In this document: piece by piece, positions 1 to 47,795 of the stretch | Layout of the letters: each line of letters begins with the position of its first letter | Position numbering within the stretch: the stretch's first letter is position 1 | Virus record (IMG/VR): IMGVR_UViG_3300037088_000099 | Location: 1-47,795 of that record | Strand: one strand, 5' to 3' | Origin: a virus | Length of the DNA stretch: 47,795 nucleotides | Program-made: the position numbers and the translations under genes | Notes under the pieces: generated by a model | What the model was told of the DNA's origin: nothing | What the model saw: only the letters and a program-made list of their open reading frames with translations | Databases searched by the model: none

Positions 1-127
1 TATAATGAACCTAGCCCCAGTACGGATGAGGCGAGAAAGACTCCGATTGGAGTAGGATGTATACCATGCAGATTACAATTACACTCACGGATGCACAGGA
101 ATCCGCCCTGTTTATGATGGGGAAGGA
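1..127. repeat. terminal direct repeat, left copy
   Basis: Bases 1-127 are identical to 47669-47795; genome unit is 47668 bp. Confidence 0.9.
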
Positions 128-332
128 CGAGGACGTGCAGCAAGCAATCGCGCAGTCCACTTTCACGGCACGCATCAAAGGCGACTTCAAGCGGTATCGG
201 GAAGCAGAGAAGAAAGTCAATGCAGCCATTTACGACGACTCATCCAAGCGCGGCGCGAAGTGGCCAGAGTCCAAAGACGATTATCTCAAGCGCATGGCGC
301 AGGAATCGCTGGCTGTCATTGCAGAACTGTAA
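57..332 (+). CDS. small ribbon-helix-helix-like DNA-binding protein (putative early regulator)
   Basis: 91-aa ORF with GGAG 4 nt upstream of the ATG. N-terminus ITITLTDAQESALFMMGK fits a beta-strand then helix RHH pattern. First gene after the divergent control region. Confidence 0.55.
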   Translation: MYTMQITITLTDAQESALFMMGKDEDVQQAIAQSTFTARIKGDFKRYREAEKKVNAAIYDDSSKRGAKWPESKDDYLKRMAQESLAVIAEL

Positions 333-641: not shown

Positions 642-1202
642 CTATGACAATCCCATATCTATCCTATCGGCTATCAACATCAGCTGAATATCTCCATAAT
701 GAATCACGAGTTGCGCTCTATCTCCGTCCATCTGCATTCCCAGCTCTCGCAGTTCGCTGGTATCTCGCAGCACGTGCAGAACGCGAGCGTATGAAGAACG
801 TATAATTCGCAGTACAAAAGAGTGTAGGTGCTTTGGCTTACCCTCGCTCTCTATCACCTTTCATCTCTATCACATACGCCATACCCTCTCAAGGTGGCGA
901 GGGGGGGTATGGCACGCGTGTGCTTTGAATTTCTCTCTCTCTGCTTTTCTCTGATTCGTGTTGAATTTGAGATTCTATTACAGAGTGCTCTTGTATTATA
1001 AAAAAAAAATATTTTTATAATATATAAGAGAACAGAAACTATGAAAGAGAAATCAATAGAAATTGAGAATTAGCACGGAAGAGAAATCATCGCTGCAAGC
1101 GTACGCACACCCCGATGTCTACCTTGAGAGGGTATCGGGTATGTCGATGATATGATGAGGGTTAGGCCGAAGTCTATCCAAAACCGCCTACACACTTTTG
1201 TC

Positions 1203-1231
1203 TTGACACGATGGCTTCGCCGGTATATGAT
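1203..1231 (+). promoter_or_regulatory. sigma70-like promoter (TTGACA, 17-nt spacer, TATGAT)
   Basis: TTGACA at 1203-1208 and TATGAT at 1226-1231. The cTTGACAc core recurs at 4121 and 9423. The predicted transcript start falls at the ATG at 1238. Confidence 0.45.
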
Positions 1232-4253: not shown

Positions 4254-4787
4254 ATGTCAACCACCGCAGTTATCTCTGATCCTAACACAATCGCAACTCT
4301 TCCAATCAGCAGCGAAGTTCTGAACTACACCGCTATTGTCGAACTTGACGAGAAAGGTGTAATCCAGAAGAAGTCCCTCACTACCAGCTCCAAGCGTGTG
4401 GAAACGCTGGAAGCTGCTGATTACTCCGGCAAGGAAATCATCGCATTCAAGCAGACTGTTTCTCGCCCGGTTGTTGGTACGCTTGCGGGATTCACTGATC
4501 TGTTCCCGGATGCTGATGCGCAGCTTTTCATTATCAACCGCGGTTTGAGTGCGTTTGCTGATGCGAAGGTTCGTTCTGTATTCCTGGAAACTGATAAGGA
4601 CGACACCGCGCTTGTTTTCCAGTCCACCACCGGCACGTATGATCTTACCGCTGATGTGCAGGATACGCCAGCACGCAAGCTCACGAGCGAGGAAACTCTG
4701 GTCGCCAGCCTGCGCAAGATGGGAGTCAGTTCGGATATGATCTCGCAGGTGTTTGCGAGCTTGCAGGCGAACAAGGCTACTGTCTAA
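4254..4787 (+). CDS. hypothetical early protein, probably highly expressed
   Basis: 177-aa ORF with AGGAGAG upstream, lying between a candidate promoter and a strong intrinsic terminator. Confidence 0.8.
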   Translation: MSTTAVISDPNTIATLPISSEVLNYTAIVELDEKGVIQKKSLTTSSKRVETLEAADYSGKEIIAFKQTVSRPVVGTLAGFTDLFPDADAQLFIINRGLSAFADAKVRSVFLETDKDDTALVFQSTTGTYDLTADVQDTPARKLTSEETLVASLRKMGVSSDMISQVFASLQANKATV

Positions 4788-13948: not shown

Positions 13949-15079
13949 TTGTCTAACACGCATGTTGCAAATAGTGGAAATCCTGCTTGCCCCGTATGGG
14001 TGATGCTGAATAAACCTCTTTCCGGTGACTCGGATAAGGGATATTTATTCAGCTCCCCTATGGGGTATGTTTTTGATAAAATGATGCGGGAAGCGGGGCT
14101 GCCGGATTATTTTGTTACCTGTAATCAGCCTAATACGGATTCTAATGCCGGCGGGGATTGGTTATCTTATTTCATGCACCATAAACCTGCGATTATAATT
14201 CCGCTTGGCGCGGTAGGTGGGCATCTTTCTGAGTGTATGATACCAAAATATCGCTCCGCAAAATACGATCCAGAGCGAGATTCTGAGATTTCTAAATATG
14301 CGGGTTCGTTACTCACTGCGGATCGCTTGCCAAATGTAACATGGCCGCACTATGTTGTCCCGACATACGAGCCACTGGATATTGTAAAACAGTGGAAGAT
14401 GCGGGATGTGGTTATCAGCTGTGATCTCGCCAAGGCAGCAAGCGAGTACGAATACTGGAGAACCCATGCTCATACAATGCAGCCACTTCCTGAGCGCACA
14501 CCCAAGATTAATTTCGATTCTTTCGACGAGCTTTTATATATCTTGGATACTTTTTGTAATTACCCTTTGCTTTCTAATGACATCGAGACGATCTATCCAA
14601 GAGCGCCTACGAAAACCCAACCATCGCAATTCTACCGTATTCTTCCTGGCTATCCTATTACTATCGGTCTTGCTCCTACTGTCGGGTTCGGTATTAGCTT
14701 TGATTTATTTAGAGAATCTACAGTAGAAACTCGCGAGCTATGGAAAAAGCTAGCTAAGTTACTATGGGAAGTACCATCCCTCGGTCAAAATTTCTTCAAC
14801 TTTGATGCGAATTTCTACGAAATGCTCGGCTTTCGGCTTCCACTTGAAAAATGTCGGGATACTATGATTCAGCATCATTTACTCTGGCCGGAATTGAAAC
14901 ATACGTTACAATTTCAGGCGAGACAGTATACCCGCGAGGTATACTGGAAGGACGAGGGTGCTGGCTGGAGTATTAAGAATATGGATCAAATGAAAATCTA
15001 TAATTGTAAGGACGTAATGTGTACGTTGGAGATTTACTACGCGCAACTGGAAGAGATGAAATCAAGGGGGTTGGAATGA
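13949..15079 (+). CDS. DNA polymerase A family, 3'-5' exonuclease subunit
   Basis: Exo I (SNDIETI), Exo II (GQNFFNFDANFYEML) and Exo III (YNCKDVMCTLEIY) motifs in canonical order. N-terminal 200 aa of unknown fold. The ORF ends without a polymerase domain. Confidence 0.8.
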   Translation: MSNTHVANSGNPACPVWVMLNKPLSGDSDKGYLFSSPMGYVFDKMMREAGLPDYFVTCNQPNTDSNAGGDWLSYFMHHKPAIIIPLGAVGGHLSECMIPKYRSAKYDPERDSEISKYAGSLLTADRLPNVTWPHYVVPTYEPLDIVKQWKMRDVVISCDLAKAASEYEYWRTHAHTMQPLPERTPKINFDSFDELLYILDTFCNYPLLSNDIETIYPRAPTKTQPSQFYRILPGYPITIGLAPTVGFGISFDLFRESTVETRELWKKLAKLLWEVPSLGQNFFNFDANFYEMLGFRLPLEKCRDTMIQHHLLWPELKHTLQFQARQYTREVYWKDEGAGWSIKNMDQMKIYNCKDVMCTLEIYYAQLEEMKSRGLE

Positions 15080-15252
15080 AATATCTGAGATATATACCGC
15101 ATCCACATTGGCGCCGGTTAAATTTTCTCTGGGTAAATAGCAGAGGCGGGGCAACAAAAAGAAAAGATGCTGCACATAGTAGAGTTTACTATATTCGTAC
15201 TTGTAAGTTATGTGGGAAGAAAATAGATAATGGCTCCAGAAGAGGATATTAG
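15076..15252 (+). CDS. small basic protein with C-terminal CxxC
   Basis: In-frame ATG overlapping the exonuclease stop (ATGA); 58 aa. Confidence 0.4.
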   Translation: MKYLRYIPHPHWRRLNFLWVNSRGGATKRKDAAHSRVYYIRTCKLCGKKIDNGSRRGY

Positions 15253-15254
15253 TA

Positions 15255-15458
15255 ATGGCTGAAATCAACGCATCTACCCAAGAGCAACTCGCAGAGCAAA
15301 TAAATGCTCAGTTCAGAACGCTCTCTGAAATTCTCCAAGAGCAACACGAAGCATACAAGCTCTTATACGACATTAATGGCAAGTTCATAGAATACTGTGA
15401 ACACGCCAGAATACTAGCCCAATCAGCACAACCGAATGTATCCTTAGGAGGATATTAA
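15255..15458 (+). CDS. hypothetical small protein
   Basis: 67-aa ORF starting 3 nt after the previous stop. Confidence 0.5.
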   Translation: MAEINASTQEQLAEQINAQFRTLSEILQEQHEAYKLLYDINGKFIEYCEHARILAQSAQPNVSLGGY

Positions 15459-15823
15459 TGGCAGCTCAGGCATTTAATCTTACTTTCAACTGCACGCCCG
15501 CACAATTCGCTGTAGCAATGGCTACAACACTTCCAACAGAAGGATATACTGTTATTCAAGCACCTAATAAATTTGCCGGTATTATTACCGGAACATCAAG
15601 TGCTGCGGCAGGACTTGGGCAACTAGATTTCTTCTACGATGGCGCGTATTATCTCAAATTCTTCGGTGCGAATCCTGCTCCGGTCGCACAGCAAGCACAG
15701 ACCGGAATCCCTGCTACACAGTTAACAAGTAATATCGTGAGTAATCTTACTACAACCCTCGCTGCAACCCTCGGCGCACCAGTACCCTCGAACACAGCTA
15801 ACGTAGCTGGCCCTGCTGCTTAA
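15458..15823 (+). CDS. hypothetical Ala/Thr-rich protein
   Basis: 121-aa ORF whose ATG overlaps the upstream stop. Confidence 0.5.
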   Translation: MAAQAFNLTFNCTPAQFAVAMATTLPTEGYTVIQAPNKFAGIITGTSSAAAGLGQLDFFYDGAYYLKFFGANPAPVAQQAQTGIPATQLTSNIVSNLTTTLAATLGAPVPSNTANVAGPAA

Positions 15824-15895
15824 TTGCTCTCACAACTAGAGGGGCAGAAATGTCCCTCTACTTAAACGCAAAATTTAATACCCGGAGAGTAAAAA

Positions 15896-16627
15896 ATGAA
15901 AATCGTTCAACCATATGCGAAAATTATAGAGCCTGAGTTATTGGCACAAGCACTTCAGCGGATTGAAGCCGCTGCCCGCATCAGCCACAGAAGCGAAGAT
16001 GGACAGACAGCAGATACAGCAGAAAAGTTTATTCGTGCTGTTGTATTAGGACACGGTGATTGGTCAGTTGTGGAACACGTTTCCGCATCAGTCGAGTTTC
16101 TTGTGGATCGCGGCATTACACATGAAATCGTGAGACACCGGATTGCCAGTTATACGCAGGAGTCCACGCGGTTTGTAAACTACGCAAAGAAGATGTTGCC
16201 CAGCTTTATCTATCCCATCGTTGGGGTAGAGTGCCCGTACTGCATTGCTGGGGAAGAAGTACGCAAGCGCGATTCTTTGGGTGGCAACTGGGGCCACGAT
16301 AACCTAATTAAATGCCCGTATGATCCTCTGTGGTTAACTGCGATTGATACCTTAGAAAAATCGTACACTGCTTTGATCGCACAGGGATGGCGACCACAGG
16401 AAGCGCGGTCTGTTTTTCCCAACGCCCTATCCTCAAAGATTCTCGTGACTTGTAATCTGCGTTCATGGCGTCAAATCTTTCTGATGAGAACGAGCAAAGA
16501 AGCACATCCACAAATGCGTCATGTGATGATTCCTCTGCTAGCTGATTTTCAGAGGCTTGTGCCGGTACTCTTTGAGGATATTATTCCCGAGTCGCGGCAA
16601 GTTGAAAATATAGCGAGGGGAAGATAA
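15896..16627 (+). CDS. thyX: flavin-dependent thymidylate synthase (ThyX)
   Basis: ThyX signature RHRIASYTQESTR (RHR ... S ... R) at the expected position in a protein of about 240 aa. Contains an extra Cys-rich segment CPYC...CPYD. Confidence 0.8.
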   Translation: MKIVQPYAKIIEPELLAQALQRIEAAARISHRSEDGQTADTAEKFIRAVVLGHGDWSVVEHVSASVEFLVDRGITHEIVRHRIASYTQESTRFVNYAKKMLPSFIYPIVGVECPYCIAGEEVRKRDSLGGNWGHDNLIKCPYDPLWLTAIDTLEKSYTALIAQGWRPQEARSVFPNALSSKILVTCNLRSWRQIFLMRTSKEAHPQMRHVMIPLLADFQRLVPVLFEDIIPESRQVENIARGR

Positions 16628-16641
16628 GTGACTGGTATACT

Positions 16642-18171
16642 ATGACACCTAATAAGATTACTAGTGAGTATCTACATGCGCTGCAAGCTGTGTACCATAG
16701 GATAGATTCCAGGGGTATTCTTGTTAACAAAGAAAGGCTAAGAGATGCTGCACTTTATATTAACAAAAGCATTGATACTCAGTGCCATATTATTAGTGAT
16801 ATTTGGAACTTGGACTGTTACATCGGAGCCTCAAACAAGCCGGAAACTGGCTCTCGGCGCAGTCTTAATCTTAATAGTTCCTCCGGTGACAATACTCCTC
16901 TGCTCTATCTAAAATCAGTAGGATTTAAAATCCCAAAAGTCAGCAGCAGAGACGAGGATGGAAACTACATAGCAAAGGAATCTCTCAATGAGCTTGTCCT
17001 GCAAAAAATATATGCTACCAATCAATTCGGAATCCTTGGGGGCGACCCGGCGTTACGAGCGCTATTGCGAATACGCGAACTCGGTACCTTGCGCGCACGG
17101 TATATCAATGCGAATCTGTACGAACGAGAAGGGACTAGCCTCTTTCTTACAAATTACAACATCGCTGGAACGGTCACAGGTCGCAGAGGCTCTCGCAAAC
17201 ACACGTTTGGATTTGGAGGGAATGCTCAGAATTTCCCAAAGCATGGAGAACTCGCTAAAGTATACCGCAGGTGTTTGGTTGCAAGACCAGGAAAAATCCT
17301 GTTGAATGTAGATCAGATGCAAGCGGAAGATTGGCCGACAAGTGCGCTGGCACAGAATATGGAGGCGTTGGATGATTTACGGAATAACGTGGATCGGCAC
17401 AGAAAACTCGGTTGCCTCATATTTGACCTCCCTTGGGATCATTATACAGATGTTGAATGGAAGGATTCAATTGAGCGCTATCTTGGTAAGCAAACTAGAC
17501 ACGCGAACAATTACGGGATGCGAGCAAATACTATGTCAGACTCGCTGGCAAAGGAGGGACACTCAGTTACACCTGCTCAATGCGCTGCTATTCTCGAAAA
17601 AGTAAACAAGCATGATCCCTCTGTCGAACACGTATTCCACAAATACATAAAGGACTGTCTATATGCAAACCGCACCCTCCGCACTCCCTTCTCCCGCGAA
17701 CGTATCTTCTTCGGCCTCCGTGCTGGCGAATCAGGAAGTAATAACAAAATTTTCAACGAAGCATTTAGCTACATACCACAGTCTGTTGTCGGAGATAACA
17801 CGGGATTCTCAATGTTTGCTCTTGAAACCGGAAATGACGCGACAAGAGGTCACGTTATACAAGAATGCCATGATTCGATTATGCAGGAGATTGACGACAA
17901 TGTGGATTCTATCTGGGATCATATCCAAGCGGCTAAAGCAGCATTTAATCGCCCAATTCGATTCGACAACGGAATTGAAATCAACATCCCAGTTGAGGGA
18001 GAGTTGTCCTACGACTTCTCACAAGGAGTAAGTTTGAAGTCATCCAGCACCAAGACGAAAAAACTCTCTGACATATCGTACAGTGATGTACAAGCAGCAT
18101 TTTATCAGCTGCAAGAAATAAAACAGAAAGAAGCCCAAGATGGCCAGAAAGTTGCCTCAGAATTGGATTAG
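16642..18171 (+). CDS. DNA polymerase A family, polymerase-domain subunit
   Basis: O-helix region GTVTGRRGS...GNAQNFPK resembles the Klenow TGRLSS...PNLQNIP block. Motif B-like KQTRHANNYG and motif C-like ECHDS are present. No exonuclease domain in this ORF. Confidence 0.85.
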   Translation: MTPNKITSEYLHALQAVYHRIDSRGILVNKERLRDAALYINKSIDTQCHIISDIWNLDCYIGASNKPETGSRRSLNLNSSSGDNTPLLYLKSVGFKIPKVSSRDEDGNYIAKESLNELVLQKIYATNQFGILGGDPALRALLRIRELGTLRARYINANLYEREGTSLFLTNYNIAGTVTGRRGSRKHTFGFGGNAQNFPKHGELAKVYRRCLVARPGKILLNVDQMQAEDWPTSALAQNMEALDDLRNNVDRHRKLGCLIFDLPWDHYTDVEWKDSIERYLGKQTRHANNYGMRANTMSDSLAKEGHSVTPAQCAAILEKVNKHDPSVEHVFHKYIKDCLYANRTLRTPFSRERIFFGLRAGESGSNNKIFNEAFSYIPQSVVGDNTGFSMFALETGNDATRGHVIQECHDSIMQEIDDNVDSIWDHIQAAKAAFNRPIRFDNGIEINIPVEGELSYDFSQGVSLKSSSTKTKKLSDISYSDVQAAFYQLQEIKQKEAQDGQKVASELD

Positions 18172-20620: not shown

Positions 20621-20670
20621 GCAGCAAAAAGAATGGCCACTCTATTAACTTAGAGTGGCCATTTTAGTTT
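20621..20670. terminator. bidirectional intrinsic terminator
   Basis: Perfect 12-bp stem AATGGCCACTCT / AGAGTGGCCATT (20632-20643 and 20652-20663) with an A-run on one side and a T-rich run on the other. Lies between the last + gene (stop 20610) and the last - gene (stop 20743). Confidence 0.65.
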
Positions 20671-44086: not shown

Positions 44087-45928
44087 TTAATTATACCCCA
44101 CAGACGAATTATGTATATTTCGTTTATACTGCTCTTTCCGACGGAGAATCTCGAATTCTATCTCGTCAGTATTTGTGTCGAAATCCCAGACCTGTGGGCC
44201 GTAACCCAGAGTATCAAGTACATCAATTAATCTGCCACTTGGGTATGATTCAAATTCTTCGATGAACTCTTCCATACCTACTGTGTTGATCCAGAACTCA
44301 CCACGAGAAAATATCGGGCCGAGTCCTTCAATTCGCATTTTCTTAGCATTTGCTGTTTTCGGAGTTTGTAGCTCCTTGATTGTAAGTGCTGCATATCTCG
44401 GATCACGCGCTGCTTTTTCTTTGATTATGTAATCCATGTGGTACTTGAGATATTTTTGGGCGGCGATAGTCTCCATATAGATACAATCCAGCTTCCATAC
44501 GTTGACGGCAAGATCTAGCATAACTCCGATAAATTCATCAGTACCACACGCTTTTGCCCATACATCTAGAAGGTATATCCTGCGAGGGTCTTCTGCGATT
44601 CCAGTAACTGTGATAGCATGTCGGCAGCGCCCATCGTTTCCTGAATGATTAGGATCGACTATCATGTAGCGTTTGAGATTACGAGGGCTAATGTCCTCTT
44701 CTACATCACCATCTAATACTTTGTGCCGGATATTTACTTTCGTGCGCGTGCGTGTTTTGCCGCTTGAGTCGAATGGAATCACATCCATGTATGTAAAAGA
44801 GTGGTCTTTTACAAATTCAAAACGGCGCAAATTCTTGAGTTTAAATTTTACCTCACTCGGATTTATTGGCGCGTTAAGATACTGGCAAGAAAAAATGTAA
44901 GTACCGAGACGCTTACGATAGCGAGCCAACTTTTCATAGTTAAACGATTCGGGAAAAATAGGAATCCCGAAAGGGTGGAGCGGACAGCAGCCACCCAGCG
45001 CGCTATGCGTTGTGAAATTGAAGTAAGTTTCATGCTCTCTCAAATGGCTATTTAAATCTTTATAACTCCACCGATTTCCAACTACAAGCTCGTCATTATC
45101 TCGCCCACCATCATCTTGCTCTGCGTCGAATGCACCTACAAGATACTTATGATACTCAATAGTCTTCGCCATTGTAACATCTGATTCATATGCTTCCCGA
45201 CCTACAAGATCGTCCTGAATCACAATATCATAATGTCGTGACTGTAATGCGCCACCTACTCCAATGAAATCGAAAGTTCCTTCGCCCTGTGCTGTTGAAC
45301 CTTTCGTGCGCATCTGGCAGAAAGATTCTTTGTTTTGAGTACAACTTGCGTCAGGCAATATCTCAGGAAATACATGCTTAAATATATCATTATTCTGATA
45401 ATGCCCCTGCAATCTAACACCCAACTTTGAGGCATTTGTAATAACTTCGGATGCGAGGAGGATACGTATATCTTGATTATGTACATACTTCATCCATTGA
45501 ATCCAGCGATCTCCGTAACCGAGGGCACGCATGTATAATTCATCTTCGTAAGTAAATGAAAGAGCGCGCCAGAGTGAGTAGCATTCTGTGTATGTTGTGG
45601 ATTTATAGTGTCCGCGAGGAATTTCAATACAATCTTTGATTCCATCCTTTTCTACAACCTTACACATTTGATAATGCAAATTTTGTTCGGGATTTGGATT
45701 CTTCTGAAATCTACTCTTTCCAAGTACGCGGGTTGCGAAGTAAAATAAAGAACCCTGCGAATTCAATCGATGAATCATTCGGAGCGTAGTAGGATCATTG
45801 TGAATCGGAGGAAGCATTTTCCAACTAGAGGTTACTGAGCCAGGAAGGTATAAACCACCAGTTTCACTATATAGATATTCCTGCTCCGCGTCAGCTACAT
45901 CTTTTAGATCGTGAGTAGTGTAGCTCAT
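44087..45928 (-). CDS. terL: terminase large subunit
   Basis: 613 aa. Deviant Walker A IPRGHYKST and Walker B IVIQDDLV in the N-terminal ATPase half; acidic residues in the C-terminal half consistent with a nuclease. Flanked by HNH and small terminase candidates. Confidence 0.85.
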   Translation of the reverse strand: MSYTTHDLKDVADAEQEYLYSETGGLYLPGSVTSSWKMLPPIHNDPTTLRMIHRLNSQGSLFYFATRVLGKSRFQKNPNPEQNLHYQMCKVVEKDGIKDCIEIPRGHYKSTTYTECYSLWRALSFTYEDELYMRALGYGDRWIQWMKYVHNQDIRILLASEVITNASKLGVRLQGHYQNNDIFKHVFPEILPDASCTQNKESFCQMRTKGSTAQGEGTFDFIGVGGALQSRHYDIVIQDDLVGREAYESDVTMAKTIEYHKYLVGAFDAEQDDGGRDNDELVVGNRWSYKDLNSHLREHETYFNFTTHSALGGCCPLHPFGIPIFPESFNYEKLARYRKRLGTYIFSCQYLNAPINPSEVKFKLKNLRRFEFVKDHSFTYMDVIPFDSSGKTRTRTKVNIRHKVLDGDVEEDISPRNLKRYMIVDPNHSGNDGRCRHAITVTGIAEDPRRIYLLDVWAKACGTDEFIGVMLDLAVNVWKLDCIYMETIAAQKYLKYHMDYIIKEKAARDPRYAALTIKELQTPKTANAKKMRIEGLGPIFSRGEFWINTVGMEEFIEEFESYPSGRLIDVLDTLGYGPQVWDFDTNTDEIEFEILRRKEQYKRNIHNSSVGYN

Positions 45929-46332
45929 AGTAATTTCTTTTTCTTCTGCGCCTCCCTATACGCAAAATTAGGATAATACTCAGGAGCTATTTTTCTATCA
46001 GAGCGATATCGCTGACAATTTAATCCTCGTCCGCAACACTCAACCTTCAACTCATTACCTGCCGCGTCTGTATGCACAAGATTGTAAATATGATATGAAG
46101 TAGGTTCTATTTCTACATGGCATTTCTGGCAGAGAATTATAACATTAAAAGGACAATGAGTAATACTCTCATTGCCATAATGATGTCTATTACCTATATG
46201 ATGCCCATGTAAAAATCCTTCTGGCGTATCCTTAGCCGCGATGCCGCAGCGTTCGCAATTTGTATGGATTCTACGAAGGAATCTACTTAAAGCCTTCCAC
46301 AACTTTTCTTGTGCTCTGACAGGGAACCGCAT
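45925..46332 (-). CDS. HNH endonuclease
   Basis: CERCG ... HGHHIGNRHH ... N ... CQKCH gives the His-Me finger pattern with two CxxC pairs. Overlaps the large terminase start by 4 nt. Confidence 0.8.
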   Translation of the reverse strand: MRFPVRAQEKLWKALSRFLRRIHTNCERCGIAAKDTPEGFLHGHHIGNRHHYGNESITHCPFNVIILCQKCHVEIEPTSYHIYNLVHTDAAGNELKVECCGRGLNCQRYRSDRKIAPEYYPNFAYREAQKKKKLL

Positions 46333-47008: not shown

Positions 47009-47209
47009 TTATAGCACTCCGGCAGGACTGATATCTTCGACCAGCACAGAGAGCGCTAGAAATTCCTCAATGCTATTATCAGGAAAAAGTTGCCGCTTCA
47101 CGGCCCCACGCTGTGCGGAGGGAGCGGGCTGGCCAGTCACCAGGGATTTATCCCATGCATACTTAGCTTTGAATTTCTCCAAGCTATCAAGTACATTCGA
47201 CTCGCTCAT
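47009..47209 (-). CDS. hypothetical small protein, first gene of the late operon
   Basis: ATG at 47209 with GGGAG upstream, giving 66 aa. The ORF track's longer N-terminal extension lacks a ribosome-binding site. Confidence 0.45.
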   Translation of the reverse strand: MSESNVLDSLEKFKAKYAWDKSLVTGQPAPSAQRGAVKRQLFPDNSIEEFLALSVLVEDISPAGVL

Positions 47210-47261
47210 ACTCCGCTCCCCTTTCCCGCGCACCCGCGCCGCACTGTGTTTACTATATATA

Positions 47262-47326
47262 GATAGGGGCAAAAAATCAATAGGGTATAGCGTGGGGTAT
47301 AGCGGTATTGGAATAGCGTATAGCGG
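47262..47326. repeat. iteron-like direct repeats (GGGTATAGCG x2, ATAGCG x2)
   Basis: GGGTATAGCG at 47283-47292 and 47295-47304, then ATAGCG and TATAGCG at 47313-47325, preceded by GATAGGGG. Confidence 0.6.
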
Positions 47327-47465
47327 CCCCTCCGGGGCAGGCCCCCGGCCATCGCCCAATAGCACCGCCCTTCGGACGAGCAGCTTCGCTGCTGGAGTAT
47401 ACTTCAGATTTTAGTATACAAGTAGGTACGAATTTTTCAAAAATTTGTATGGGGCCTCCCCGGCC

Positions 47466-47519
47466 ATCGAAAAAAGTTTTTCGATTTTTTGGGGGTGGGT
47501 ATGTAACTATATTAGTTAC
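47466..47519. repeat. palindromes in the control region
   Basis: ATCGAAAAAAGTTTTTCGAT at 47466-47485 and GTAACTATATTAGTTAC at 47503-47519. Further GTAAC/GTTAC half-sites and the AGTAAC..GTTACT hairpin extend to about 47615. Confidence 0.55.
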
Positions 47520-47668
47520 ATATAGAATGTAACCATAAGAGTTACAGATAGAATTGGTAGCATAGTATGTGGCATGTGTCAAGTAAATAATAAGGGAGTA
47601 ACGAGTTAGTTACTGTTGTATACTTAGTACTGTAGTGAATAAGTGTGCGGAGTACTTGACGAGAGCGG

Positions 47669-47795
47669 TATAATGAACCTAGCCCCAGTACGGATGAGGC
47701 GAGAAAGACTCCGATTGGAGTAGGATGTATACCATGCAGATTACAATTACACTCACGGATGCACAGGAATCCGCCCTGTTTATGATGGGGAAGGA
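47669..47795. repeat. terminal direct repeat, right copy
   Basis: Exact copy of bases 1-127, including the first 71 nt of the ORF that starts at 57. Confidence 0.9.

What the first reader, a model, noticed from the sequence alone, without database searches (positions are those of the whole stretch)
47210..47668. Repeat-rich divergent control region beside the terminase genes (candidate cos/pac site and late promoter)
A 460-bp non-coding stretch between the first late gene and the first early gene contains iteron-like repeats, a CCCCGGGG-type palindrome, a 20-bp palindrome, and at least four GTAAC/GTTAC inverted-repeat sites. It sits next to the small terminase, HNH and large terminase genes, which is typical for a packaging recognition site, and could also hold divergent promoters or operators.
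Basis: partly seen in the sequence, partly recalled or inferred. Interest (0 to 1): 0.6.

Follow-up and report, generated by a model that had tools for sequence, protein, structure and literature searches.

The report
Phage early/late control region with terminus signal
This is the non-coding junction between the early and late gene arms of an uncultivated soil phage: it holds the two outward-facing promoters with their regulator sites and one deeply conserved 75-bp element that probably marks the end of the packaged genome, so it is an ordinary kind of phage region with a specific, testable prediction.

Summary
The window is a circular assembly (127-nt overlap), so the true intergenic region is 47210-47724.

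Comparison with about 30 related metagenomic phages resolves five parts:
- **Late promoter.** A sigma-70-type promoter reads left: -35 at 47280-47275, -10 at 47257-47252. The 17-nt geometry holds in 13 of 15 variants.
- **Short repeats.** Lineage-specific repeats (GGTATAGCG x4) lie just upstream of the late promoter.
- **Conserved island.** A single-copy element at 47423-47500 is kept even in relatives with about 50% TerL identity.
- **Palindrome zone.** This hypervariable zone holds three GTAAC-N6/7-GTTAC sites, not four.
- **Early promoter.** It carries a perfect TATAAT at 47669-47674.

The HNH gene is a sporadic cassette, absent from a relative with identical TerS and TerL, so it does not argue for cos packaging. 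TerL falls in the T7 gp19 family. All 14 T7-supergroup genomes sampled have a C-run 20-29 nt from their left end. The island has an invariant C-run 27 nt after a conserved A/T palindrome.

Best reading: a divergent control region plus the left boundary of a short T7-type terminal repeat, with the terminus predicted near 47431. This is unproven without virion reads. Interest is modest.

The parts
47009..47209 (-). First late gene (66-aa ORF), immediately upstream of the TerS-like gene. It marks the left edge of the intergenic region.
   Evidence: ORF list. Homologues at 37-100% identity occupy the same position in relatives. It has no family hit.
47245..47280 (-). Candidate late promoter reading leftward: -35 TTGATT at 47280-47275, a conserved 17-nt spacer, and -10 TATAGT at 47257-47252. 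It lies inside the conserved motif TTACTATATATAGATAGGGGCAAAA (47250-47274).
   Evidence: Promoter scan. The motif is unique in the window. In 13 of 15 distinct variants a TTGnnn-type hexamer (TTTTTA in one) lies exactly 17 nt upstream of TATAGT/TACTGT. The late arm has no other sizeable non-coding gap.
47284..47325 (.). Four short direct repeats GGTATAGCG (two exact, two with one mismatch) just upstream of the late -35. They are candidate binding sites for a late-gene regulator, or alternatively for the small terminase.
   Evidence: Relatives have different 8-9-mers with a shared GTATA core at the same place (CCGTATAC x2 in L016; GTATACG/GTATACA in L015).
47326..47422 (.). G+C-rich variable spacer containing the GCCCC-TCC-GGGGC and AGCAGC-TTC-GCTGCT hairpin-like palindromes. 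It is not conserved.
   Evidence: Sequence. It does not align outside the closest relatives, and 39-nt and other deletions occur in close relatives.
47423..47500 (+). Conserved single-copy island with four parts: an A/T palindrome block (GAATTTTTCAAAAATTTGTAT, 47430-47450); N7; an invariant C-run plus GG (CCCCGGCC, 47458-47465); a 16-17-nt variable spacer; and GATTTTTTGGGGGTGGG (47483-47499). Proposed packaging/terminus signal.
   Evidence: It is the only stretch of a 2.7-kb query that still aligns with the 75%-TerL relatives. Alignment of 9 variants; 22 distinct near variants. An island-like element is present in relatives with 45-52% TerL identity. It is single-copy in the window. The full motif occurs only in this family; genome hits are at chance level.
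47427..47437 (+). Predicted position of the left physical end of the virion DNA, which would be the start of a short direct terminal repeat running rightward. This is inference only.
   Evidence: In 14 of 14 T7-supergroup records the first C-run starts 20-29 nt from the left end. In the window the C-run starts at 47458, 27 nt after the start of the conserved A/T palindrome. One metagenomic contig (L101) begins 4 nt before the palindrome; this is anecdotal.
47500..47643 (.). Hypervariable palindrome zone. It holds three GTAAC-N6/7-GTTAC inverted repeats (47503-47519, 47529-47545, 47598-47613), the first two inside a 26-bp tandem unit. They are candidate operators of the early promoter, or lineage-specific terminal short repeats.
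   Evidence: 3 observed against 0.03 expected. Relatives swap in other palindromes or repeats, or host DnaA boxes. L002 lacks 74 bp here. It is the second least stable DNA in the genome.
47644..47674 (+). Early promoter region: TGTGCGGAG, then TTGAC (47656-47660), then a perfect -10 TATAAT (47669-47674). The TTGAC lies only 8 nt upstream of the -10, so it is not a canonical -35.
   Evidence: Sequence and pattern search. TTGAC-N6-8-TATAAT is conserved across the window, L003, L004 and L008 lineages.
47725..47795 (+). Start of the first early gene. ATG at 47725 or, more likely, 47734, which equals window 57/66. It marks the right edge of the intergenic region.
   Evidence: Most of the 46 homologues are 88 aa, starting MQITITL.

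Best explanation
The region is the central non-coding junction of a lytic-type phage whose early arm (plus strand) and late arm (minus strand) are transcribed outward from this point. It has three functional layers.

1. **Late promoter.** A host sigma-70-type promoter (-35 at 47280-47275, -10 at 47257-47252) drives the whole 26-kb late operon, which starts with the 66-aa ORF, TerS and TerL. Four short repeats directly upstream of its -35 are where a phage regulator most likely binds to time late expression.
2. **Early promoter.** A perfect TATAAT at 47669-47674 is preceded by a fast-evolving zone of palindromes (three GTAAC-N6/7-GTTAC sites here). These most likely act as operators. Other lineages use different palindromes or host DnaA boxes in the same place.
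3. **Conserved island.** A single-copy 75-bp island lies between the promoters at 47423-47500. It is most likely the terminase recognition and cutting signal, specifically the left boundary of a short T7-type direct terminal repeat. The virion DNA would begin near 47431, about 27 nt before the invariant C-run. The repeat would extend rightward over the palindrome zone for an unknown length (a few hundred bp in the sampled T7-type phages) and stop before the early genes.

**What is shown:** the conservation pattern, the promoter geometry, the sporadic nature of HNH, the TerL family, and the C-run rule in T7-type phages.

**What is inferred:** which proteins bind, the timing of expression, and the physical terminus.
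For: **Architecture**
- Plus-strand genes run from 57 to about 20600 and minus-strand genes from 20743 to 47209.
- A terminator-like hairpin sits where the two arms converge.
- The late arm is almost gap-free.

**Late promoter**
- Promoter scan hit.
- The motif is unique in the window.
- The 17-nt geometry is kept in 13 of 15 variants.

**Repeats and palindromes**
-; lineage-specific replacement in relatives.

**Island**
- It is the only DNA still alignable with the 75%-TerL relatives.
- 33 invariant columns across 9 variants.
- It is kept at the same place in relatives with 45-52% TerL identity.
- It is single-copy in the window.
- The full motif occurs nowhere outside this family (only its C-run-to-T-run half also hits unrelated contigs).

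**Terminase type**
- The window TerL, T7 gp19, Pf-WMP3 TerL and TR020 TerL all have phrog_38 as their top family over the same profile span.
- The nearest cultured TerL relatives are Saffermanviridae.
- Pf-WMP3 has an exact 234-bp terminal repeat. Its terminase lies on the minus strand close to the right end, so its ends fall in the equivalent divergent region.

**C-run rule**
- The first C>=4 run starts at nt 20-29 from the left end in 14 of 14 T7-supergroup records. The chance value is 0.02-0.11 for each.
- In the island the C-run is invariant and is followed by G, as in Saffermanviridae (CCCCCCGT/CCCCCCGG).
- Pf-WMP4 also has GGGTGGGCATGT soon after its C-run, compared with GGGGGTGGGTATGT here.

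**Compatibility with the assembly**
- Short-read assemblers collapse such repeats and circularise the contig (PMC10438801). The circular assembly is therefore compatible with a terminal-repeat genome.
Against: - There are no virion reads, so no terminus is observed.
- Every sufficiently long related contig reads straight through the island. This is expected for collapsed repeats but gives no positive support.
- TerL is only 21-24% identical to Saffermanviridae terminases, and pairwise BLASTP against T7 gp19 is not significant. Packaging type is not strictly predictable at that distance.
- The C-run here is C4 followed by GG, rather than the C5-(A/G)T of most Autographiviridae. The resemblance was noticed post hoc.
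- The early promoter lacks a canonical -35.
- No DNA-binding regulator was identified. The first early protein gave no fold match.
- The short repeats beside the late promoter could be TerS sites rather than regulator sites.
Confidence: 0.45

Rival explanations
1. The island or the repeats form a cos site. The terminase, helped by the adjacent HNH endonuclease, makes staggered nicks there to give cohesive ends (HK97/lambda style).
For: - The region lies directly upstream of the TerS-TerL module, where cos sits in lambda and HK97 (established knowledge).
- An HNH gene lies between TerS and TerL.
- HK97 GP74 HNH promotes cos cleavage by TerL (PMC9410871).
- The G+C-rich CCCCGGCC could serve as an overhang.
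Against: - The HNH gene is absent from L020, whose TerS and TerL are 100% identical, and from L003, L023, L008, L009, L013, L015 and L016. It therefore cannot be a required packaging component.
- TerL falls in the T7 gp19 family and shows no match to other terminase families or to solved HK97 or lambda proteins.
Confidence: 0.1
2. The island is the origin of replication, or part of it. The A/T palindrome would be the unwinding element, and the nearby repeats or DnaA boxes would be initiator sites.
For: - Cumulative GC skew has its minimum at this junction and its maximum near the convergent end.
- AATTTTTTAAAAAATT-type palindrome.
- Perfect DnaA boxes lie right of the island in L015 (three: one perfect, two with one mismatch) and L016 (one).
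- The phage encodes its own PolA, primase-helicase and a DnaJ-domain protein.
Against: - The skew is equally well explained by the two transcription directions.
- The island is of average duplex stability (z about -0.2 to 0.8).
- A far better candidate lies at 861-1155: a 46-nt inverted repeat flanking the least stable DNA of the genome, also conserved in relatives.
- There are no iterons inside the island.
- Origins usually diverge together with their initiators, whereas this is the most conserved non-coding DNA in the family.
Confidence: 0.15
3. The island is purely transcriptional. It could be an UP/-35 element of a second leftward promoter (TTGAAA-16-TATACT, 47440-47413). It could also be an insulator or terminator between the divergent promoters, or a small RNA gene ending in the hairpin plus T-run.
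For: - A promoter-like hit scoring 10 of 12 on the minus strand.
- A hairpin followed by T6 in the window clade.
- Good hairpins before the T-run in the far relatives L142 (-9.3 kcal/mol) and L131.
Against: - The hairpin is lost without compensation in close relatives, and it is absent in 10 of 22 near variants and 7 of 8 variants in a second set, mostly far relatives.
- The consensus fold is weak, with no covariation support.
- There is no Rfam match even at E<=1.
- The leftward -10 is not conserved in far relatives.
- The G-run after the T-run is conserved, which a terminator does not require.
- The element is single-copy, so it is not a promoter class.
Confidence: 0.2
4. The region holds a headful pac site. 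TerS would bind the repeats, TerL would cut imprecisely nearby, and virion genomes would be circularly permuted.
For: - The assembly is circular.
- The TerS-like protein carries an HTH-like N-terminus (reading of the sequence).
- Repeats lie close to the terS gene.
Against: - TerL is in the T7 gp19 family rather than a headful family.
- pac sites usually lie inside terS (established knowledge).
- A precisely conserved 75-bp element with fixed internal spacing fits a site-specific cut better than imprecise cutting.
Confidence: 0.07

Closest known systems
Left end and terminal repeat of T7-type phages (Autographiviridae: T7, T3, gh-1, SP6, phiKMV, LKA1, RSB1, Syn5, P-SSP7)
   Same: - The terminase large subunit is in the same PHROG family.
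- The signal lies in a non-coding stretch ahead of host-type early promoters.
- A C-run sits a fixed short distance (20-29 nt) from where the genome starts.
- Arrays of short lineage-specific repeats surround it, like the CCTAAAG arrays visible in the T7 sequence.
- A leftward host promoter is annotated near the repeat in T7 and T3.
   Different: - There is no phage RNA polymerase: no ORF of suitable size on the early arm, and no PHROG hit among the large proteins scanned.
- The genes are in two divergent arms rather than one direction.
- The C-run is C4+GG rather than C5+(A/G)T.
- The terminal repeat itself is unobserved.
Genome ends of Saffermanviridae cyanopodoviruses (Pf-WMP3, Pf-WMP4, PP, LPP-2, A-4L)
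   Same: - These are the closest cultured TerL relatives.
- The late genes, including the terminase, lie on the minus strand at the right end, and the early genes run rightward from the left end. The physical ends therefore sit in the divergent junction.
- Pf-WMP3 has an exact 234-bp repeat.
- Their left ends read ...TTCCCCCCG(T/G)..., and Pf-WMP4 continues GGGTGGGCATGT, which resembles the island's C-run+G and GGGGGTGGGTATGT.
   Different: - TerL identity is only 21-24%.
- The island's A/T palindrome block has no counterpart at their ends.
- The hosts and habitats differ (cyanobacteria versus the unknown host of these metagenome-only relatives).
Central divergent transcription control region of phage phi29 (early A2b/A2c and late A3 promoters switched by protein p4). 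From my own knowledge, not tested here.
   Same: Early and late promoters are back to back, and regulator sites upstream of the late promoter could activate late and repress early transcription from a single region.
   Different: No p4/p6 homologues were found. Phi29 has protein-primed ends that lie elsewhere, and there the control region is not the packaging site.
cos sites of lambda and HK97 (cosQ-cosN-cosB; HK97 needs the HNH protein GP74, PMC9410871)
   Same: The position is directly upstream of the small terminase gene. Short repeats near it could be TerS sites, and an HNH gene is nearby.
   Different: HNH is sporadic here. The TerL family differs. There is no evidence for cohesive ends.

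Membership tests
T7-type direct-terminal-repeat packaging signal | Large terminase of the T7 gp19 family | tested here: met
   phrog_38 is the top family for the window TerL (E=6e-54), T7 gp19 (6e-135), Pf-WMP3 TerL (2e-88) and TR020 TerL (1e-78), over the same profile span. Pairwise BLASTP against gp19 is not significant.
T7-type direct-terminal-repeat packaging signal | C-run (>=4 C) starting 20-29 nt from the left physical end, inside the repeat | tested here: inconclusive
   The rule holds in 14 of 14 sampled records. The island has an invariant C-run 27 nt after the start of a conserved palindrome. The physical end itself is unknown.
T7-type direct-terminal-repeat packaging signal | The same sequence is present at both ends of virion DNA (two-fold read coverage, sharp read starts) | not testable with these tools
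   Only assemblies are available. The 127-nt overlap is an assembler artefact of a circular path. Short-read assemblers collapse terminal repeats (PMC10438801).
Autographiviridae (T7-like phages in the strict sense) | Phage-encoded single-subunit RNA polymerase | tested here: not met
   The largest early-arm ORF is 509 aa (PolA). None of the proteins scanned hits an RNA polymerase family.
HK97-type cos packaging with an HNH partner | HNH endonuclease gene conserved next to the terminase genes across relatives | tested here: not met
   HNH is present only in the window/L001 and L004. It is absent in L020 (TerS and TerL 100% identical; replaced by about 260 nt of unrelated DNA) and in eight further relatives.
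HK97/lambda-type cos packaging | Cohesive single-stranded ends at a fixed site | not testable with these tools
   This needs virion DNA (ligation or heating restriction patterns, or read-terminus analysis).
Bacterial sigma-70-type promoter (late promoter) | -35-like and -10-like hexamers 16-18 nt apart, with the geometry conserved in relatives | tested here: met
   TTGATT-17-TATAGT. A TTGnnn-type hexamer (TTTTTA in one) lies 17 nt upstream of TATAGT/TACTGT in 13 of 15 variants, scoring 8-10 of 12. Activity was not measured.
Bacterial sigma-70-type promoter (early promoter) | -35-like and -10-like hexamers 16-18 nt apart | tested here: inconclusive
   The TATAAT is perfect and conserved, but the conserved TTGAC lies only 6-8 nt upstream. 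Possible -35 hexamers sit 17-20 nt away depending on the variant.
Iteron-type replication origin | Clustered direct repeats next to an easily melted A+T-rich element | tested here: inconclusive
   Four GGTATAGCG repeats exist, but they abut the late -35. The island is of average stability. The least stable, symmetric region is at 861-1155.
Intrinsic terminator or small RNA gene | Stem-loop maintained by compensatory changes, followed by a T-run | tested here: not met
   The T-run is conserved but the stem is not. 10 of 22 near variants and 7 of 8 variants in a second set, mostly far relatives, lack it, and it is broken by single substitutions. The consensus fold is weak. There is no Rfam hit.

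The most novel reading that the evidence does not exclude
The conserved island may be a previously undescribed, deeply conserved recognition element of gp19-family terminases: an A/T palindrome, then a C-run 27 nt downstream, then T-run/G-run. It would extend the T7-type 'C-run near the left end' signature to RNA-polymerase-less phages with divergent arms. Alternatively, it may be a multifunctional hub that couples the genome end with the early/late switch. Either way it would give a sequence rule for predicting the termini of uncultivated phages from assemblies alone.
Probability: 0.15. Interest if true: 0.5.

Novelty: new member of a known kind. Interest (0 to 1): 0.3.

Why it matters
If the prediction holds, it fixes the genome ends, packaging mode and main promoters of a widespread family of metagenome-only phages with no cultured member. 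It would also suggest a simple sequence signature for locating the termini of T7-terminase-type phages in short-read assemblies, where terminal repeats are normally collapsed: a conserved block about 27 nt upstream of an invariant C-run, placed between the early and late arms. The work also shows that an HNH gene next to a terminase is not in itself evidence for cos packaging. Beyond that, the region is an ordinary phage control region.

Tried and rejected
- **tRNA and known RNA families:** none found.
- **Small RNA or terminator reading of the 20-bp palindrome:** rejected, because the stem is not maintained.
- **HNH as a packaging cofactor:** rejected as sporadic.
- **Contig-end analysis as a proxy for physical termini:**
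  - Related contigs end at scattered places.
  - The two that share an end (L010, L012) stop at an A13 homopolymer in the next intergenic region, which is an assembly break.
  - One contig (L101) starts 4 nt before the island and L013 stops shortly before it. This is anecdotal.
  - A further scan for contigs starting inside the island found only unrelated chance matches.
- **Search of 185,579 bacterial genomes for the island, to find a host or prophage:** 30 hits against about 17 expected by chance (my own estimate from the pattern's degeneracy and the collection size), all unrelated.
- **First early protein as a ribbon-helix-helix operator binder:** the AlphaFold model (pLDDT 80) is helical, with an unstructured and hypervariable N-terminus. 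It has no significant PDB match, so the idea is unsupported.
- **Solved-structure sequence searches for TerL and TerS:** nothing useful.
- **GenBank phage DNA similarity:** none.
- **MW202554, the nearest GenBank metagenomic relative:** the same divergent layout, but no island-like motif.
- **Kuraviruses (phiEco32, SU10; the window's portal matches the Pfam SU10_portal family):** no C-run at their left ends, so the rule is specific to the T7 supergroup.
Full report
**What the window is**

The first 127 nt equal the last 127 nt, so the window is a circularised short-read assembly of a 47,668-bp phage genome.

- **Gene layout.** Genes on the plus strand run from 57 to about 20,600, and genes on the minus strand from 20,743 to 47,209. 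A terminator-like hairpin sits where the arms converge.
- **Plus arm.** It encodes replication functions: PolA split by ThyX, a DUF3987 primase-helicase, a Sak4-like protein, an exonuclease, an FtsK-like ATPase and a DnaJ-domain protein.
- **Minus arm.** It encodes virion and packaging functions: portal, major head protein, tail spike, TerL, HNH and a weak TerS match.
- **Not found.** No integrase, repressor family or phage RNA polymerase was found among the proteins scanned.
- **True extent of the finding.** The finding lies at the point where the two arms diverge. Because of the wrap-around, the non-coding region is 47210-47724/47733.

**Checking the observation**

- **Short repeats.** GGTATAGCG is real: two exact copies and two with one mismatch within 42 nt.
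- **20-bp palindrome.** It is at 47466-47485.
- **GTAAC/GTTAC sites.** There are three complete sites, not four. They are the only three in the genome, against 0.03 expected. The first two lie within a 26-bp tandem unit.
- **'CCCCGGGG' palindrome.** It does not exist literally. Two interrupted versions do.
- **Known RNAs.** No tRNA or known RNA family lies in the region.

**Related sequences**

There is no DNA match in GenBank phages. IMG/VR and JGI metagenomes hold a family of relatives. TerL protein identities are 100, 97, 90, 82, 75 and 72%. A more distant set has 45-52% identity. Read in the window's orientation, all share the same layout.

**Anatomy from comparison**

1. **Late promoter.**
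   - About 40-60 nt upstream of the first late ORF lies the conserved motif TTACTATATATAGATAGGGGCAAAA (47250-47274). It is unique in the genome.
   - On the minus strand it reads TTGATT, then a 17-nt spacer, then TATAGT.
   - In 13 of 15 distinct variants a TTGnnn-type hexamer (TTTTTA in one) lies exactly 17 nt upstream of TATAGT/TACTGT.
   - The late arm has no other sizeable non-coding gap, so this is the obvious late promoter.
2. **Short repeats upstream of the -35.**
   - Every lineage has 2-4 copies of a short repeat with a GTATA core, but a lineage-specific sequence.
   - Conserved arrangement with drifting sequence is what co-evolving protein-binding sites look like.
   - A late-gene regulator is the most economical reading. 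Small-terminase sites cannot be excluded.
3. **Spacer.** A G+C-rich spacer follows. It is not conserved.
4. **Conserved island (47423-47500).**
   - It is the only part of a 2.7-kb query, which included terS and four early genes, that still aligns at the DNA level with the 75%-TerL relatives.
   - It consists of three sequence blocks at fixed spacing: an A/T palindrome block ending in TTGTAT; N7; CCCCGG(C/A)C; a 16-17-nt variable spacer; and GATTTTTTGGGGGTGGG.
   - The 45-52% relatives keep recognisably the same element in the same place: GAAAAAATTTGTAG, then C6-7+G, then T-run(s), then GAGGCGGGTG.
   - It is single-copy in the genome. The full motif occurs only in this family. Hits in 185,579 bacterial genomes are at chance level.
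5. **Hypervariable palindrome zone.**
   - Right of the island is a zone that differs even between near-identical phages. L002 lacks 74 bp of it.
   - Other strains carry ATCTGAGATA-type repeats, ACAACTATAGTTGT, ATGATACTTAAGTATCAT, or host DnaA boxes (TTATCCACA in L015 and L016).
6. **Early promoter.**
   - A conserved TATAAT follows (47669-47674), with TTGAC only 6-8 nt upstream.
   - A 50-nt leader then runs to the first early gene. Some relatives carry a roughly 200-nt insertion in this leader.

**The HNH argument fails**

The HNH gene (45925-46332) is present only in the window's twin L001 and in L004. L020 encodes TerS and TerL proteins 100% identical to the window's, yet has about 260 nt of unrelated non-coding DNA in place of the HNH gene. 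Eight other relatives also lack it. It behaves like a free-standing homing endonuclease. It does not behave like the conserved HK97-type packaging partner, whose role in cos cleavage is documented in PMC9410871.

**What kind of terminase is present**

- TerL has phrog_38 as its best family (E=6e-54). T7 gp19, Pf-WMP3 terminase and Arthronema virus TR020 terminase all have the same top family over the same profile span.
- The nearest cultured relatives by tblastn are Saffermanviridae cyanopodoviruses at 21-24% identity.
- In those phages the terminase sits on the minus strand near the right end and the early genes run from the left end. Pf-WMP3 has an exact 234-bp terminal repeat. Their physical ends therefore lie in the junction equivalent to this region.

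**A terminal signature**

I read the left ends of 14 T7-supergroup records that start at the physical end: T7, T3, gh-1, SP6, phiKMV, LKA1, RSB1, Syn5, P-SSP7, Pf-WMP4, Pf-WMP3, PP, LPP-2 and A-4L.

- In all 14 the first run of four or more C starts at nt 20-29. The chance value is 0.02-0.11 for each.
- Saffermanviridae read TTCCCCCCG(T/G). Pf-WMP4 continues GTGTGGGTGGGCATGT.
- The island's only invariant G+C feature is a C-run followed by G. It begins 27 nt after the start of the conserved A/T palindrome and is later followed by GGGGGTGGGTATGT.
- Kuraviruses, which have a different terminase context, lack the C-run.
- By analogy, the left end of the virion DNA would be at about 47431, and a terminal repeat of unknown length would extend rightward over the palindrome zone. 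In the sampled T7-type phages the repeat is a few hundred bp (annotated or measured at 216-414 bp here).
- T7 itself has arrays of short repeats in and around its terminal repeat (sequence). The palindromes here could therefore be terminal short repeats rather than operators, or both.
- This chain is inference. The resemblance was found post hoc, and TerL is distant from the cultured examples.

**Alternatives for the island**

- **Origin of replication.**
  - The GC-skew minimum falls here, but that is confounded by the transcription direction of the two arms.
  - The island is of average duplex stability.
  - The next intergenic region (806-1210) is a better candidate. It contains a 46-nt inverted repeat (861-906 and 1110-1155) flanking an A/T-only palindrome that is the least stable DNA in the genome. 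It is conserved in all relatives and followed by a canonical TTGACA-17-TATGAT promoter.
- **Terminator or small RNA.**
  - The T-run is conserved but the preceding stem is not. A G-to-A change destroys it in close relatives without compensation.
  - 10 of 22 near variants and 7 of 8 variants in a second set, mostly far relatives, have no stem.
  - The consensus fold is -4.4 kcal/mol with an unfavourable covariation term.
- **Second leftward promoter.** TTGAAA-16-TATACT at 47440-47413 scores well in the window clade but is not conserved in distant relatives.

**Who binds the palindromes**

This is unknown. The first early protein (88 aa, 46 homologues) has a hypervariable N-terminal 8 residues on an otherwise highly conserved body, which suggested a ribbon-helix-helix operator binder. 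The AlphaFold model (pLDDT 80) gave no significant PDB match, so this stays speculative.

**Physical ends cannot be read from assemblies**

Related contigs pass through the island or end at scattered places. The shared end of L010 and L012 is an A13 homopolymer. Short-read assemblers collapse terminal repeats and open circular contigs arbitrarily (PMC10438801). The circular assembly therefore neither supports nor contradicts a terminal-repeat genome.

**Verdict**

It is wrong in its reasoning (HNH) and probably in the type of site (cos or pac). The most likely mechanism is:
- host-polymerase promoters firing outward;
- lineage-specific regulator sites on both sides;
- a conserved terminase signal between them that marks the left boundary of a T7-type terminal repeat.

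My confidence is about 0.75 for the promoter and operator layer and about 0.45 for the terminus reading. This is a new member of known kinds of element, in an uncultivated phage family, and interest is modest.

Noticed in passing
window 1-127 and 47669-47795: The two ends of the window are identical over exactly 127 nt. This is the overlap left by a de Bruijn assembler on a circular path, and the unique genome is 47,668 bp. The overlap starts exactly at the early-promoter TATAAT, which is coincidental.
   Followed up: yes
window 45925-46332 (minus strand): The HNH endonuclease gene between TerS and TerL is a sporadic cassette. It is missing from a relative with identical TerS and TerL proteins (replaced by about 260 nt of hairpin-rich non-coding DNA) and from eight other relatives. 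It behaves like a homing endonuclease.
   Followed up: yes
window 806-1210: A second non-coding region. It has a 46-nt imperfect inverted repeat (861-906 and 1110-1155) flanking an A/T-only palindrome (994-1022), which is the least stable DNA of the genome. It is conserved in all relatives as an A10-A13 run and is followed by a canonical promoter TTGACA-17-TATGAT (1203-1231). It is a candidate replication origin or early-operon boundary. Two related contigs break at the A13 run.
   Followed up: partly
window 13949-18171: The family A DNA polymerase is split. The exonuclease-like part is at 13949-15079 and the polymerase part at 16642-18171. A ThyX thymidylate synthase gene (15896-16627) and a small ORF lie between them.
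   Followed up: no
L015 about 4260-4300 and L016 about 4385-4395 (relatives, zone between island and early promoter): There are perfect host DnaA boxes TTATCCACA here: three in tandem in L015 (one perfect, two with one mismatch) and one in L016. They sit where the window has its GTAAC/GTTAC palindromes, and the last one overlaps the -35 position of the early promoter.
   Followed up: partly
L036, L087, L091, L102 (relatives), between the early promoter and the first early gene: A roughly 200-nt hairpin-rich insertion sits in the 5' leader of the first early gene. It is absent from the window. It could be a leader RNA structure or a small mobile module.
   Followed up: no
window 66-332 (equals 47734 onward), first early protein: Among 46 homologues, the first 8 residues are hypervariable (MQITITLT, MAEMKFHIT, MELIINIT and others), while the rest of the 88-aa protein is strongly conserved. 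The function is unknown and there is no fold match.
   Followed up: partly
window 20632-20663: A 13-pair hairpin lies at the point where the early and late arms converge. The scan flags it on the minus strand, with a T-rich tail there. It is a likely terminator, possibly acting in both directions.
   Followed up: no
Left ends of 14 T7-supergroup GenBank records (L084, L150-L159, L164-L166): In every record the first run of four or more C begins 20-29 nt from the left physical end, usually as TT-C5-6-(G/A)T. The two kuraviruses checked lack it. This could serve as a terminus signature for gp19-type terminases.
   Followed up: partly
window 47343-47354 and 47458-47469: The 12-mer CCCCGGCCATCG occurs twice, 115 nt apart: once in the variable spacer and once inside the conserved island. 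The first copy is not conserved in relatives, so it is probably a recent local duplication or chance.
   Followed up: partly
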